A stretch of DNA of 64,000 nt from assembly GCA_964016885.1 (NCBI GenBank), contig OZ024740.1, forward strand, positions 373,364,001-373,428,000, given 5' to 3'. The translations under genes were made by a program, and so were the position numbers. Below the pieces are notes generated by a model. The model was not told the DNA's origin. It saw only the letters and a list, made by a program, of their open reading frames with translations, and made no database searches. This DNA is from Eledone cirrhosa (taxonomy: Eukaryota). Below are positions 9,179 through 58,478 of this stretch, piece after piece. Position 1 is the stretch's first letter, and the number at the start of each line of letters is the position of its first letter.

Positions 9179-9306
9179 ATAGGAACGAGTAGAACCCCGA
9201 CGGCTGAGCTCAAGCCGTTTCGGCGGCTAATTCTGGACGGAATTCTGGGCAGAATTAGCCGTCGAAACGGCTTGAGCTCAGCCGTCGGCGTCCTACTCGT
9301 TCTTAT
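9179..9306. repeat. Near-perfect 128-bp fold-back made of the 3' half of a hammerhead motif
   Basis: Arms of about 58 bp. Right arm reads GACGG..CCGTC GAAA CGGCT-TGAGCTC-AGCCG TC (stem II, GAAA, 6-bp stem III, GUC). Confidence 0.85.
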
Positions 9307-9723
9307 TAGACACTCTACTACCCTAAGTATTGAGTACTTTGGTGCGTTATGGTCCACCTGGTTCCTTACCACATTTCCTTCGTTATATATATATATATGT
9401 ATTATGTATGTACATATATATAATTTAGGTATATATACGTATGTATATATATATATATATGTATATATACATATGTATATATATATACATATGTATATAT
9501 ATATATATATATATATATATATATATATATATATATATATATATATATATATATATATATATATATATATAAATATGTATATATGTATAGATATATATTT
9601 ATATATATATATATATATATATATATATATATGCTCGTATAAAAATGTAAGTCCAAAGAATCATTAGATAAACTATATACACCATTTCCTCTCCCAATCA
9701 GTATACATTATATATATATACAT

Positions 9724-9913
9724 GGCGGTGGATTGGCAGTATCAGTAGATGGTGGGACATCATGCTTTGCAGCAAAAAGTTACGGCTCTTTATGATCTGA
9801 GTTCAAATCCCGCCGAGGTTAACTTTGCTTTTCATCCATACGAGGTCGATAAAATAAAGTAGCAGTAATGTACTGGGTATTTGCTGGCCTTGTGCCAAAA
9901 GTAGAAACAGTTA
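9724..9913 (+). mobile_element. Full-length tRNA-derived SINE
   Basis: A-box-like TGGCAGTATCAGTAG and B box GAGTTCAAATCC. Confidence 0.92.
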
Positions 9914-10061
9914 TATATATATATATATATATACAGATAAATCTACCAATCAATGGTAGAGTCTAAACCGTATGAAGTACCCAATCTAATCCGTATGTAG
10001 ATGTCGTGAAGCGAAGTTTAAAATACAAAATGTTCATTGGATACAGCGTCAAAATAGAAAC

Positions 10062-10430
10062 ATTAAAACAATGAAGTTAAACACAAAACGGTTTTATTCA
10101 TAGTAAAACTCATTATTTTCGATCGTTTCTTCGGGGTTAGTTTCCCGTATGTCCATTCAATTATTGATCTATCTGAGATATTACAAAATATCATAGTATG
10201 AAAAAATACATACGTTTACACTACCCGCCGTCTTCAGAAAAAGTGATTTCTGAAGACGGCGGGTAGTGAAAACGTATGTATTTTTTCTTACTATGATATA
10301 TTGTAATATTTTATATAGATCAATAATTCAATGCAAATACGGGGAACTACCCCCCCCCCCCATAAACGATCGTAAAATAATGAGTTTTATTATGAATTAA
10401 CCGTTTTTTGTTTAATTTCATTCTTTTAAT
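10062..10430. repeat. About 370-bp fold-back (arms about 180 bp) centred just 5' of a CTGAAGA...GAAA hammerhead-like core
   Basis: Example of the arm pairing: CACTACCCGCCGTCTTCAGAAA / TTTCTGAAGACGGCGGGTAGTG. CTGAAGA lies at 10250-10256. Confidence 0.9.
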
Positions 10431-53910: not shown

Positions 53911-55849
53911 TATATATATATATATATATATATATATATGTGTGTGTGTGTGTGTGTGTGTGTGTGTTTGCGAGCGACTGTGTATCTGTGTCTGTATATA
54001 TGGGTACGCGTGTGTATGTTGTTGTGCATGGGGAAGAATAAAGGTGGGTGTCTATGTATATGCCTGTACGTGTTTGTGTGTACGGGTATATATTCGCGGA
54101 TGCATGTGTGTGCGCCTGTGCGTGCGTGTGTGTGTGTTGATGTATGTGGCCATGGAGGCATGCGTCTGTATATGCGTTCGTCTATAGGCCTATATGTTTA
54201 TATGCTCCCCTTAAGAGTGTGCGTACGGCGGGAGTCTATGCGTGCGACTGCCGTTATATATGGTTTTTGTGCGTGTGTGTGTGTGTGTGTATGTGTGTGT
54301 GAGTGCGGGCGTGGACGTGTGAACTACCAAACACAACGGTAATTCATTGACGTGTGGCGAACAAGCAGCTGATGATCAGCTGAATTGATACCTGTGGTGA
54401 AAATTATGATGACGTGGAAAACCAGCACCCAATGACAGGACGTGTGAAGAGGATGGAGGTTTTGAAGGTAACAACACCCCAGCGGAAGAATTACTAGATG
54501 TTTCCGTCGAACCTACGGGTCCAGAATCAGACAGATCCCCACAATGATCCTGTCTCGACCTGTCCGCCGGCGAAACAATTGTAGTACACAATAAATTGAC
54601 TTCAGATGCATCACTGACTTTTTGATTTATATTATATATCTATATCTATATCTATATCTATATATATATATATATATATAAATATTTATATATATATATA
54701 TATATATATATATATATATATATATATATGTATATATATATATATATATATATATATACATATATATATAAACATAGAGAGAGAGGGAACAGAGAGAGAG
54801 AGGAGATATATAGATAGAAACAGAGAGAGAGAAAGAGAGGGGAGCATATATATATGTGTGTTTTCGTTCGTGTTAAACGAGGAAACTTAAACAAAAGTCT
54901 GAAAAAGATGGGTAATTAGTTCATTGGTCTACGATCGATTCAGAGAGTTGATTGATCATGTTAGATCAATATATCGACAAGATGTTAATGCTTAAGTCGT
55001 TACATGTTTCTTGTAACAAAATCCCTGAACACTCCCAACATCTTCCACAAAAGCAATGAACTATTATTTCATTTGCTACATATATAAGATGGATGGAATA
55101 TTCACGTATGGTGTATCAATCGGGGATGAAATAGATAGACAAAACTGCGTAAATTATTTAGGAAGAAAGACGGGTGGGAGTAGTAAACACATAATTGTGT
55201 GTGAAATATAATACGGACAGCATGTATACATATACACCGCATCCAAACACTCTACCCAGAAAGTCATAAATAAGAATGATTAGCTGTGTGTTTAGGTATA
55301 CGGCCAAATGTAGGTAGACGGATGGACAAATGAATTTGTTTTTAGAGGACTTCTTTGCGATAATTAACATTTATTATATCTAAATTTTGAACCGGCCTTT
55401 ATTAACAATGTCCTAATCAATCACGCCGAATCTTAGTAGCTTTATGAGATTAAATAATAAACCCGTCTGGTTGTATAACAACAAATGAATCCGGGCAGGT
55501 ATCGATATCCACTATAGAACATCTAACCAATCATATTACCAACATTCTATTCTGAGCAGAGCTGCGCCCAACCATTCTGGTGGATCGAACATCATACGTG
55601 TCAATCCAACACACCATTCTCCTATTTTGAATACCAGCCCGAATGCAGATACAAGGGATGGCCACAGGCCATGGACGCACTACAACTGCAAGAACTTAAG
55701 AAATATCATTTAAAAGGAACATATATGTTTAATAAAATCATTTACTAATGTAACAACATTTGGGGATATATAAATATGTGGACAACATATATGCTTATCT
55801 GTAGTCGGAATCAAGCTTAACTCCAAAGTCCGCCAAGGGCGCTTACTCT

Positions 55850-56305
55850 AAATTCTCCAGTACATTATTTACGTGAGCATGATAGATATGTGCAGCCGGT
55901 TGGGAAGTGGTATCATGACTAGCGGGTGTCAAACCAGTCGCTTTGTATTTGCAGACGACATGGTGTTACTTAATTCGACAAAAGTTGATCTCGGACTTGC
56001 ACTCGATAGGTTTGATGTCAAGTGATGCTTGGCTGGAATGAAAATCAATGCTACGAACACTGAGGCAATCGTCTTCTCAAGGGAGCCTACACAGTGCAAT
56101 GTGCATGAAAATGGAGTTCCACTGAAGCAGGCAGAGACGTTCAAGTATCTCGGGGACATGATCACGAGTTATGGGAGACAGAAGGCTGAATTAAGTGCAA
56201 ACATTGCAGGAGATGGTTCAGTAATACGCCAGGTTCAGCGTTCAGTAATCAGAAGAAAGTTGTATTGTAAGGCATAAAAGTCAAACTCGCTATTTCCAAT
56301 TCTCT
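55850..56305 (+). mobile_element. RTE-type LINE RT fragment
   Basis: FVFADDMVLL..DL..ALDRF..AGMKINATNTEAIVF..GVPLKQAETFKYLG. Confidence 0.8.
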
Positions 56306-58395
56306 ATTTGATACTGAAGTAGAGTTTAAATATTCATTGATTAAGGCTAAGTTGTGATCTTCTTACTTTGGTATTTCACATCCGAGTGCGCAGGTGAAAC
56401 TCCAGATTAACATGGCTCAATGCTTAGTCAAAATAAATGTATGTATACTTTTCGGTATTCAGTGTTGATAACTGCAAGCAATCGAATTACTATGCTGTCA
56501 TTAGACATAAGTACTCTAAGTCGTAGGTACCATAAGTTGTATCAGGTGGCGTATCAATATTAGGAAAAGGAGGAGAGACTGTAGGGCATTGGTTGAACAA
56601 GAAAAGATCAAATAACCGTTTGTAACTTAGGAGGATTTTGCAGATGGAATACAATGAACATATGCTTCTTTATTTCTTACGAGATATCAATCGACGTTTA
56701 TTGTGTGAGTTAATTCGATACAATCGAATGATCATGTACGTGTATGCGCAAATATACATTTACTATTCTCCGGCTCAATTGTATATATTTTCTCCTTTTC
56801 TACTCCTAATTTAATACGTTATGTATATTGAAAATTGCGGCTGATTATTTGTCCACTTTTCAACGTAGGTAGAAATTATAGCAGATTCATCTTCATGAAT
56901 ACGCATACATATGGTTAATGAAGTCAATGCATTTTCACAAAATTAATTCAATGCAAGTATCACAGAAGTGTAATTTTCTTCACAGATTTCAAGAAGTAAA
57001 GTGAAACATTTAGAATAGAACATAAACATTCTAATTATGATTAATCTTTTCTACTGCAATGCGCATATGGATTTTACTTCACGTGTTTAAAGATATATTG
57101 TGCGATAATATAACTCTTTCATGTACAATGGCTAATCAGTTGTAGTTATCATAAGTCTTTCGAGCAAACTTATTTCATACTCTGCAGTAATTGAAATCTT
57201 TGTGGGCAATATTCGCTTTACAAAACCGTTCCATCTAGCTGATATATAATATTAGTTACTCACGTCTAGCTGCAGTGTATGTTACTTAGATGTAATTTTC
57301 TCCGACTAAATTTAGATCTACGTATTTGTGCTTATTAAGTTGCTGAAGCGAAAATTCCCGATGACATTATAAGTTATTCCTCTAAAATCTAATGTCAAAT
57401 ACAGAACTATTGGTTTATTGAACGTCAATGAAATAAAGAACAGAAAGTTGATTTCCACGGAACAGATTTCAAACGTCATTAGAACGTTGTAACATATTCA
57501 TGTCGGGAAAAATTAACATTCTTGCAATATCGCCCACATTGTTCGTTAATACGCACCAGAAAAAAAGAAACAAAAATAGTATGTGTTTCATTTGATAAGT
57601 ACTAGCCTGCTATTAGTTCTAGAAGTGGAAACACAGATGGTTTATCATTGGGTCGTGTGCAAATTGTGGTTGAATGTGTGTGTAAATCTGCAAATCAGAA
57701 AAATGAACGGAATATATCAATCCGTTCAAACAATGTAGATTCTAGAAAGTATGTAACAATGATTAGGATAGTGGTTGGAATTAGCATTTGTTAATTAACG
57801 TGGCAGGGAAGATTAAAGTCTATACCAGATTGACGTTAATATCATGACGATATATAAAGAGATTATCTCTCGTAGGGGCGTAGAAATTAACTCAAACTTA
57901 TAATCATCTACAGTCAACTATACACATGTTTATACACACAACCCTAATGTACACACACACACATACAACACAGAGCAGCACAAACACACACACACATATA
58001 TATATATATGCGTGTGTGTGTGTGTGTACAATGTACATTTATATATATATTGAATATACGTTTGCTTAAAGATAACAGCTTCAAGGAGTATAGTTTTTAT
58101 TAGGAAGAATAGACAAATATGTTAGCCATATAAGCTCGTATACATGGAAACCTGTAGGCTTTCCTCAGCAAGAGATAAGATCAAATGGAACATATAATGC
58201 TCAGTATTTAAACTTTGAGCTTGTTAATTACAGGGTATCAATATGAGTTAGTAACTCTGTATTTTATAAGTTCGGTGTACTAAGGTGATTATTTCTAGCA
58301 TATCCACTCACACCACTTCTAACGGCAAACCCACGAGGTGACATATTCATTAATGTGGTGTGTAGTTACATGTGTTTGTTCCATTTGATCTTATA

Positions 58396-58478
58396 TCTCG
58401 CTGAGGAAAGCGTAGGGATTTTCTGTTATAAACACAATTTTCAGGGCGAAACAGATTAAATCACTAATCTGTTCGAGA
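58396..58478 (+). ncRNA. Type-I hammerhead ribozyme with a full 8-bp stem III; predicted cleavage after 58473
   Basis: Stem I TCTCG/CGAGA, CTGAGGA, stem II GC..GC after a 2-nt AA insertion, GAAA, stem III ACAGATTA/TAATCTGT, GUU triplet. An inverted partial copy lies at 58158-58192. Confidence 0.75.

What the first reader, a model, noticed from the sequence alone, without database searches (positions are those of the whole stretch)
9179..58411. Long fold-back inserts whose symmetry centres lie at or near a hammerhead
Seen: inverted repeats at 9179-9306 (centre inside stem II), 10062-10430 and 51936-52036 (centre a few nt 5' of CTGAnGA), 36546-36788 (centre at stem III/cleavage site), 11225-11630, 39916-40114 and 58158-58411. 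Their sequences are unrelated, all are next to (TA)n, and all contain HHR parts. Inference: they look like MITEs but are more likely retrotransposition products in which the RT folds back or switches template near the ribozyme-defined RNA end. If transcribed, they would make long dsRNA (ADAR or Dicer substrates; coleoid cephalopods edit extensively), and the antisense arm would sequester the ribozyme.
Basis: partly seen in the sequence, partly recalled or inferred. Interest (0 to 1): 0.75.

Follow-up and report, generated by a model that had tools for sequence, protein, structure and literature searches.

The report
Head-to-head Penelope retrotransposon stubs
The seven fold-backs are real head-to-head pairs of short end-pieces of Penelope-like jumping genes, six of them beside TA repeats (a known kind of structure), and their anatomy suggests the two halves were likely copied from one RNA from two fixed start points, most often up to the RNA's predicted transcription start and not to the ribozyme cut.

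Summary
All seven inverted repeats exist, and each belongs to its own high-copy family. They are not MITEs. They are ends (pLTRs) of Penelope-like elements (PLEs): (TA)n, inverted arm, variable junction, sense arm, one-sided tail, (TA)n. One family runs directly into a 775-aa RT + GIY-YIG ORF. The inverted 5' copy with one tail is a published PLE hallmark whose mechanism is unresolved.

Evidence on mechanism: 77 of 81 classifiable incidental pairs carry exactly one tail. The two arms share variants (109 sites against about 5 expected). The tail-less arm is more often the longer (39 against 17). In three families arm 5' ends pile up at a sharp edge on an Initiator-like CA, at -6, -42 and +41 from the hammerhead core, so no single ribozyme landmark sets the centre; cleavage-site ends are a minority.

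Best model (inferred, about 0.6): both strands of a cut in (TA)n prime reverse transcription at the element's two start sites on one RNA, run to its 5' end and are joined. Snap-back of one cDNA remains possible. No RNA data were available, and no editing footprint held up. This scan reported the same reading earlier on other DNA of this genome.

The parts
9179..9238 (-). Family F1 tail-less inverted arm; outer end at RT start site 1 next to (TA)n; 5' end at +46 (parent's stem II)
9239..9249 (.). F1 junction, 11-nt insert; differs from copy to copy
9250..9385 (+). F1 sense arm (from +49; GAAA, stem III, predicted cut before 9287) plus tail 9307-9385; no CUGA box
558..808 (+). Diverged unfolded F1-like pLTR with the full hammerhead-like region (core at 702)
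9934..10243 (-). Family F2 tail-bearing arm; core at 10237, predicted cut before 10118, tail 9934-10058
10246..10433 (+). F2 tail-less arm; core at 10250; junction in the 5' strand of stem I, at an Initiator-like CA (-7) with a DPE-like motif at +28
11148..11411 (-). Family F3 tail-bearing arm; core at 11357, long stem II, predicted cut before 11276; 5' end at -54
11432..11635 (+). F3 tail-less arm, 5' end at -66; core at 11498 mutated
36546..36647 (-). Family F4 inverted arm, with an internal jump
36648..37326 (+). F4 partial tandem: first unit starts at +21 (no CUGA box); second unit 36880-37326 holds a hammerhead that passes the descriptor (37059-37101)
39853..39966 (-). Family F5 tail-bearing arm, the shorter one (5' end at +57)
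39966..40115 (+). F5 tail-less arm from -40; U3/A8 variant core at 40006, predicted cut before 40036; pLTR of a PLE with a 775-aa RT + GIY-YIG ORF elsewhere in the genome
51938..51987 (-). Family F6 tail-less inverted arm; core at 51984; 5' end about -4
51988..52115 (+). F6 sense arm from +1, predicted cut before 52026, tail about 52041-52115
58146..58192 (-). Family F7 short inverted piece (-24..+23), outer end not at (TA)n
58192..58585 (+). F7 tandem-type unit; core at 58401, predicted cut before 58474 (read by eye)
48134..50422 (-). Broken PLE ORF, 45-53% identical to the F5 protein over its main matched stretches
61222..62494 (+). Broken PLE ORF similar to the CxCX5C-linker proteins of L226 and L235; a hammerhead follows at 63303-63386

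Best explanation
These are head-to-head pairs of Penelope-like element ends, six of seven beside (TA)n repeats, likely made when both strands of one cut prime reverse transcription at the element's two internal start sites on the same RNA and both copies run to the RNA's 5' end, predicted to be mostly the pLTR transcription start. Shown: family anatomy, fixed outer ends, one tail per pair, shared variants between arms, sharp upstream edges in three families, and the link of F5 to an RT + GIY-YIG ORF. Inferred: two-strand priming, one RNA as template, the edge as a capped start, and joining of the two cDNA ends by end-joining repair over a few shared or inserted bases. Because the start sites lie 60-330 nt behind the predicted start in the pLTR, copies of the RNA's front end would be short near-perfect palindromes; the hammerhead is near the centre because it sits in the same pLTR. 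A minority of ends likely come from ribozyme-cut RNA.
For: PLE identity: the F5 hammerhead region is contiguous with a GIY-YIG ORF in two evenly spaced stretches (L209, L222); L318 is pLTR-ORF-pLTR with GxKF, DKG, YLDD, CX4CxxC and YIG. One-tail rule: of 84 incidental pairs in nine families, 77 have one tail, 4 two, 0 none, 3 unclassified; independent choice allows at most 50% (p about 1e-18); solo arms show both ends (97 tailed, 54 tail-less, 24 unclassified). Young autonomous copies: 11 of 20 carry an inverted 5' piece, 9 of 9 scorable pairs have one tail, and the tail is on the shorter arm in 4 of 9. Tail-less arm longer in 39, tailed arm longer in 17, equal in 21 of 77 (p=0.005). Shared variants: 109 sites against about 5 expected in 106 pairs; in young copies 0.20% within pairs against 0.031% across copies, 6 private to one insertion. 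Edges: 64 of 116 (F1), 46 of 69 (F6) and 14 of 46 (F5) incidental 5' ends lie within -2..+12 of an Initiator-like A, against 4, 0 and 0 in the 15 nt upstream. (TA)4 at both outer ends in 58 of 77 pairs, background 7% per end. PMC11167929: a purified PLE protein cuts and extends both strands, starts at two internal sites that bound the tail, is predicted to be a dimer and does not need ribozyme cleavage. PMC2377424: Penelope has an Inr/DPE-type promoter in the pLTR.
Against: No RNA 5' end was observed; the start-site reading rests on a 6-nt motif (1.2% per position) noticed after the fact in F1, F2, F5 and F6, and F5 matches 5 of 6 positions. Of 11 families looked at afterwards, 2 fit well (G8, G13), 1 fits at CA but is a relative of F5 (H236), 1 is broad (H208), 3 do not fit (G1, G10, H200) and 4 are too sparse or blurred by alignment breaks (F3, G6, G7, G12). 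In F2 only 1 of 15 incidental ends is at the edge; its peak comes from the tail-query sample. PMC11167929 saw no difference in start site between the two strands, and did not look at single molecules. Deletion across the centre or flipping of the spacer after insertion could blur which arm was longer, and gene conversion could also make arms alike. Four pairs have two tails, and 1 of 61 F1 pairs (L108) has arms of two subfamilies. F1, F3, F4 and F7 were not traced to an ORF; F2 (L235, a diverged relative) and F6 (L258) only indirectly.
Confidence: 0.6

Rival explanations
1. Snap-back: one cDNA, primed at the tail site, reaches the RNA 5' end, folds on itself and is copied back to site 1, where the endonuclease or TA microhomology joins it to the target; later centre deletions or spacer flips alter the junction. 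This is the first reader's mechanism; the self-priming proposal of PMC3846280 is related.
For: Explains one tail and shared variants directly. Snap-back after full-length cDNA is documented for R2 (PMC11371274 passages). Short templated inserts at junctions show some self-primed synthesis. PMC8557442 ascribes the tail to endonuclease resolution.
Against: Predicts that the tailed arm always reaches at least as far 5'; the tail-less arm is longer in 39 of 56 unequal pairs and by about 600-2500 nt in 4 of 9 young pairs whose arms differ by 0.3%. Flips or deletions would equalise, not reverse, the ratio. Tail-less solo arms end at the same site 1, so it behaves as a start site.
Confidence: 0.22
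2. The hammerhead sets the centre: ribozyme cleavage, or its fold stopping the RT or a 5' exonuclease, defines where the copies end.
For: F2 and F6 edges coincide with the 5' strand of stem I; F2 has 5 ends at 120-122 with the cut at 120; G1 has 14 of 64 ends at +37..+44 beside its cut at +50.
Against: Edges at -42 (F5), -68 (G8), -108 (G13) and +41 (F1) match no shared ribozyme landmark; cleavage-site ends are 3 of 171, 5 of 103 and 3 of 39 in F1, F6 and F5; 6 F2 ends lie 11-18 nt upstream of its cut, so that edge is not sharp.
Confidence: 0.08
3. A few palindromic master copies are transcribed and copied whole, or arms are homogenised by gene conversion, so the fixed centre is inherited.
For: Some junction sequences recur in F6; a 5'-truncated master would also give a sharp edge.
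Against: The same F6 junction occurs in different subfamilies with both arms changed together; shared one-arm variants are few and mostly at CpG/G-run sites or at sites selected by my query; unfolded solo copies end at the same edge.
Confidence: 0.07
4. MITEs or foldback DNA transposons that target TA.
For: One outer end is nearly constant, and TA flanks are usual for Tc1/mariner MITEs (recalled).
Against: Asymmetric tail, variable centres, solo arms, parents that extend hundreds of bases upstream, tandem units and a contiguous RT ORF. Target-site duplications cannot be scored inside (TA)n.
Confidence: 0.02

Closest known systems
Endonuclease-bearing Penelope-like elements with an inverted 5'-truncated copy and tail (PMC8557442 passages; PMC3846280 passages)
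   Same: pLTR with hammerhead, partial tandems, head-to-head inverted copy at the 5' end, tail on one end only, (TA)n targets, RT + C-terminal GIY-YIG.
   Different: Here most copies are stubs of 100-450 nt with long tails (about 60-130 nt against 30-40), and the junctions pile up at a fixed site; the passages read describe the mechanism as undefined or propose self-priming.
Poseidon element of Anolis in vitro (PMC11167929, abstract and main text read)
   Same: Two internal RT start sites bounding the tail, AT-rich targets, both strands extended.
   Different: That paper does not treat inverted arms, one tail per pair or 5' ends; F5 has a CX4CxxC linker that Poseidon lacks.
Neptune/Nematis (F5) and Hydra (ORFs of L226, L235) clades of PLEs (PMC8557442 passages)
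   Same: F5 protein: GxKF, DKG, CX2-5CxxC linker, cysteines between GIY and YIG. L226 and L235: CxCX5C linker, (TA)n insertion, canonical hammerheads.
   Different: Clade assigned by motifs only; no tree was built.
Non-LTR retrozymes (PMC7229834 passages; bioRxiv 10.64898/2026.07.22.740005, first fifth read)
   Same: Short type-I hammerhead repeats derived from PLE pLTRs; F4 and F7 form tandems; U-U at the base of helix II as in an axolotl family.
   Different: F1, F2, F3, F5 and F6 are non-tandem stubs of longer parents; circular RNA was not tested.
L1 twin priming (recalled, no call) and R2 snap-back junctions (PMC11371274 passages)
   Same: Inverted 5' segment made during insertion, joined over short microhomology.
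   Different: L1 twin priming inverts without duplicating; here both arms usually cover the same sequence from two fixed start sites. R2 snap-backs have no fixed outer end in the passages read.

Membership tests
EN+ Penelope-like elements | Single ORF with PLE-type RT and GIY-YIG endonuclease | tested here: met
   F5: 775-aa frame with RVT_1 (E 5e-6, below Pfam's cut-off) and GIY-YIG (E 4e-6), DKG and YLDD. Shown for F5 only; indirect for F2 and F6; not traced for F1, F3, F4, F7.
EN+ Penelope-like elements | pLTRs from partial tandems | tested here: met
   L318 and L335 are pLTR-ORF-pLTR; F4 and F7 tandems.
EN+ Penelope-like elements | Inverted 5'-truncated copy and one-sided tail | tested here: met
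   77 of 81 classifiable pairs; 9 of 9 young pairs.
EN+ Penelope-like elements | Hammerhead motif in the pLTR | tested here: met
   Descriptor hits in members of F2-F6; F1 and F7 by eye; Rfam models gave no hit.
EN+ Penelope-like elements | RT phylogeny places it among PLE clades | not tested
   Motifs only.
Hammerhead ribozyme, type I | Self-cleavage activity | not testable with these tools
   Weak predicted folds for four monomers, z -0.3 to -1.8; PLE hammerheads cleave poorly alone (PMC4209133).
MITE / foldback DNA transposon | Two symmetric constant termini around a constant interior | tested here: not met
   One-sided tail, variable centre, solo arms.
MITE / foldback DNA transposon | Fixed target-site duplication | tested here: inconclusive
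   Ends lie in (TA)n; a TA duplication cannot be told apart.
Non-LTR retrozyme | Tandem 150-400 nt units each with a type-I hammerhead | tested here: inconclusive
   Met in part by F4 and F7, not by the other five.
Non-LTR retrozyme | Abundant circular RNA | not testable with these tools
   No RNA holder listed.
Pol II Initiator/DPE promoter | Capped 5' ends at the CA motif | not testable with these tools
   Motif match only: F1, F2, F6, G8, G13 full, F5 5 of 6; DPE at +28 only in F2 among these.

The most novel reading that the evidence does not exclude
Penelope-like elements insert through a two-handed reaction: a dimer holds one RNA, primes both strands of a (TA)n break at two fixed sites, and the short products that run to the cap are joined head to head. 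The genome's tens of thousands of stub palindromes would then be a fossil map of each family's transcription start and RT start sites, and where the start lies inside the ribozyme (F1), the hammerhead would form only on read-through RNA.
Probability: 0.4. Interest if true: 0.75.

Novelty: new member of a known kind. Interest (0 to 1): 0.52.

Why it matters
How PLEs make their inverted ends is described as undefined in PMC8557442. The one-tail rule, shared variants and fixed 5' edges turn this into direct tests with an apparently young family that has many open 775-aa frames. The stubs are numerous: by extrapolation from 800 kb of four large contigs, about 22,000 F1 and 30,000 F6 pairs (95% ranges 8,000-49,000 and 13,000-59,000). 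Repeat pipelines could file them as MITEs or SINEs. In transcribed regions they would supply many long hairpins, which bears on RNA editing, but that is untested.

Tried and rejected
Rfam scan: no hammerhead at E<=1, only hairpin look-alikes. A-to-I footprint: A>G 19 against T>C 7 on the tail-arm strand (p=0.03, one of six comparisons) fell to 19 against 11 (p=0.2) in unbiased pairs and 37 against 22 (p=0.07) in all pairs; dropped. Idea that L049 shows snap-back through stem I: wrong, it is the parent's longer stem I. Link of F6 to the ORF in L243: wrong, an inverted F6 arm sits after another element. First arm mapping used references with a built-in inverted arm (F6) and a deletion (F2); redone with better natural copies, whose numbers are used for distributions. 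Palindrome-shaped queries favour look-alikes of the window copy; their target hits were left out except the 'all' row, but are inside. G1 and the five families are not in the one-tail count (no tail limits were set for them). Search with the F5 tail returned nothing. No solved-structure match for the 775-aa protein. No tRNA genes in the window. Literature searches gave no paper on two-site twin priming or start-centred palindromes in PLEs; most subscription papers are outside the library, the 2005 and 2006 PLE reviews cited by these papers were not read, and no supplements were opened, which may hold curated PLE structures for cephalopods.
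Full report
Observation. A self-comparison with microsatellites masked recovers all seven inverted repeats. Six touch a TA run; 58158-58411 does not. Rfam finds no hammerhead. A type-I descriptor finds 3 in the window against 0-1 in 10 shuffles and 65 in 800 kb of evenly spaced stretches of contigs C1-C4 against 7, 5 and 3. None of the seven window copies passes it, but members of five of their families do; F1 and F7 were read by eye.

What they are. Each repeat is one copy of a family with about 1,000-4,000 first-look candidates (lower bounds). 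Searching with the one-sided tail, which does not select for the fold-back, returns folded copies with different junctions, unfolded stubs, copies with one arm mostly missing and parents that extend hundreds of bases upstream. The F5 parent is contiguous with a GIY-YIG ORF in two evenly spaced stretches. A protein search lists 150 of 21,320 candidates, many with identical scores and 775-aa open frames. One of them, L318, is pLTR-ORF-pLTR with PLE RT motifs and a CX4CxxC linker. A diverged F2 relative follows a CxCX5C-linker ORF in L235. PMC8557442 (passages) and PMC3846280 (passages) describe this layout for PLEs: an inverted 5'-truncated copy at the 5' end, a tail on one side, (TA)n targets. 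The structure is known; MITE is rejected.

Outer ends. Arms end at one of two fixed places behind the hammerhead: site 1, or the end of the tail. Among 84 pairs that were not search targets, in nine families, 77 have one tail, 4 two, none has no tail and 3 are unclassified, while solo arms use both ends (97 tailed, 54 tail-less, 24 unclassified). These incidental copies come from the evenly spaced stretches and from flanks of loci fetched for other families; pairs had to have junction gaps of at most 70 nt. Both outer ends touch (TA)4 in 58 of 77. I fetched 20 of the 150 listed protein hits (plus strand, top shared score): 11 carry an inverted piece joined head to head with 2-12 nt of alignment overlap; two were set aside (L326 internal fragment, L328 truncated body); the other 9 all have one tail, on the shorter arm in 4. 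PMC11167929 (abstract and main text) shows for another PLE that the tail lies between two RT start sites and that both strands are cut and extended.

One template. Variants are shared by both arms of a copy: 109 sites against about 5 under independence in 106 unbiased pairs. That expectation ignores subfamily age; the cross-copy control in young elements is fairer: 0.20% against 0.031%, with 6 shared variants private to one insertion. One F1 pair of 61 has arms of two subfamilies. Gene conversion is not excluded.

Centres. Positions are given from the first core base. 5' ends pile up with a sharp upstream edge: F1 64 of 116 incidental ends within -2..+12 of +41 (4 in the 15 nt upstream), F6 46 of 69 at -6 (0 upstream), F5 14 of 46 at -42 (0 upstream). 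F2 has 7 of 58 ends at -8..-1 and 13 of 58 at 115-136 with the cut at 120, but only 1 of 15 incidental ends at the first edge. Cleavage-site ends are 3 of 171 (F1), 5 of 103 (F6) and 3 of 39 (F5). The edges share no ribozyme landmark but fall on the A of an Initiator-like motif (BBCABW, recalled consensus): full match in F1, F2 and F6, 5 of 6 in F5; F2 also has a DPE-like motif at +28. Penelope has an Inr/DPE promoter in its pLTR (PMC2377424 passages). The idea was formed on these four families. Of 11 checked afterwards, G8 (-68) and G13 (-108) fit, H236 fits at CA but is kin to F5, H208 is broad, G1, G10 and H200 do not fit, and F3, G6, G7 and G12 are uninformative. With 1.2% motif frequency per base this later test is suggestive only.

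Mechanism. Most likely (0.6, inferred): the endonuclease cuts both strands of a symmetric (TA)n target; the two 3' ends prime at site 1 and at the tail site of one RNA; both cDNAs run towards the RNA 5' end and are joined over a few shared or inserted bases. The downstream copy has to pass the upstream one, which fits the excess of longer tail-less arms (39 against 17, 21 equal; p=0.005). Copies primed in the front pLTR of the transcript would reach the cap after 60-330 nt and give the near-perfect stubs. Snap-back of one cDNA, known for R2 (PMC11371274 passages), explains one tail and shared variants but needs later deletions or flips to explain the longer tail-less arms (0.22). A ribozyme-set end fits a minority (0.08).

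Function as dsRNA. The hairpins would fold very stably, but no RNA holder was listed and the A>G asymmetry did not hold. PLE hammerheads cleave poorly alone (PMC4209133 passages). That U3/A8 cores can be active is recalled, not tested.

Novelty. New members of a known kind. Seven searches found no paper on a one-tail rule or start-centred PLE palindromes; PMC13282606 (passages) lists Penelope-like and MITE counts for an octopus, and 'palindrom' does not occur in its main text; PMC7229834 (passages) and bioRxiv 10.64898/2026.07.22.740005 (first fifth) treat tandem retrozymes. Earlier notes of this scan on other windows of the same genome reach the same reading; I had recorded mine before opening them, they are not independent support, and they supplied the lead to PMC3846280 and the Hydra label. 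Nothing was noted near this window. Interest 0.52: an ordinary structure with a testable handle on an open mechanism.

Noticed in passing
window 48134-50422 (-) and 61222-62494 (+): Two broken PLE ORFs in the window; the second is followed by a hammerhead at 63303-63386 that passes the descriptor.
   Followed up: partly
window 24324-29745 (-): Broken LINE-like element(s) with RVT_1 matches at 27633-28109 and 25484-25975.
   Followed up: no
window 8556-9163 and 10451-11060: Two near-identical 600-nt repeats between TA runs, often next to the PLE stubs elsewhere too; not classified.
   Followed up: no
window 39966-40115; L318; L236: Hammerhead cores with U3/A8 in F5 and relatives; F1 parents have either C3/A8 or U3/A8; the L208 family has A at core position 4.
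   Followed up: partly
G000 C1-C28: Many identical-scoring copies of a 775-aa PLE frame, a likely active family; an upstream AUG in the L318 leader opens a frame that ends near the main frame's start, so translation of the full protein may need a frameshift or splice.
   Followed up: no
L113, L123, L168, L266, L278, L288: PLE stubs of different families stack in the TA runs beside one another, building long mixed arrays.
   Followed up: no
L108: F1 pair whose two arms carry diagnostic bases of different subfamilies: a two-RNA event or gene conversion.
   Followed up: partly
L200 family, +162/+163 from the core: 23 copies begin at one AT-rich site far downstream of the hammerhead, many joined to (TA)n, with no Initiator motif; unexplained.
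   Followed up: no
window 35857-35913 (-): Hammerhead of another abundant family (G1) whose 5' ends gather beside the cleavage site.
   Followed up: partly
window 53338-53614 and 50597-50802: Tandem repeats of about 91-93 nt (3 copies) and 75 nt (2.8 copies).
   Followed up: no
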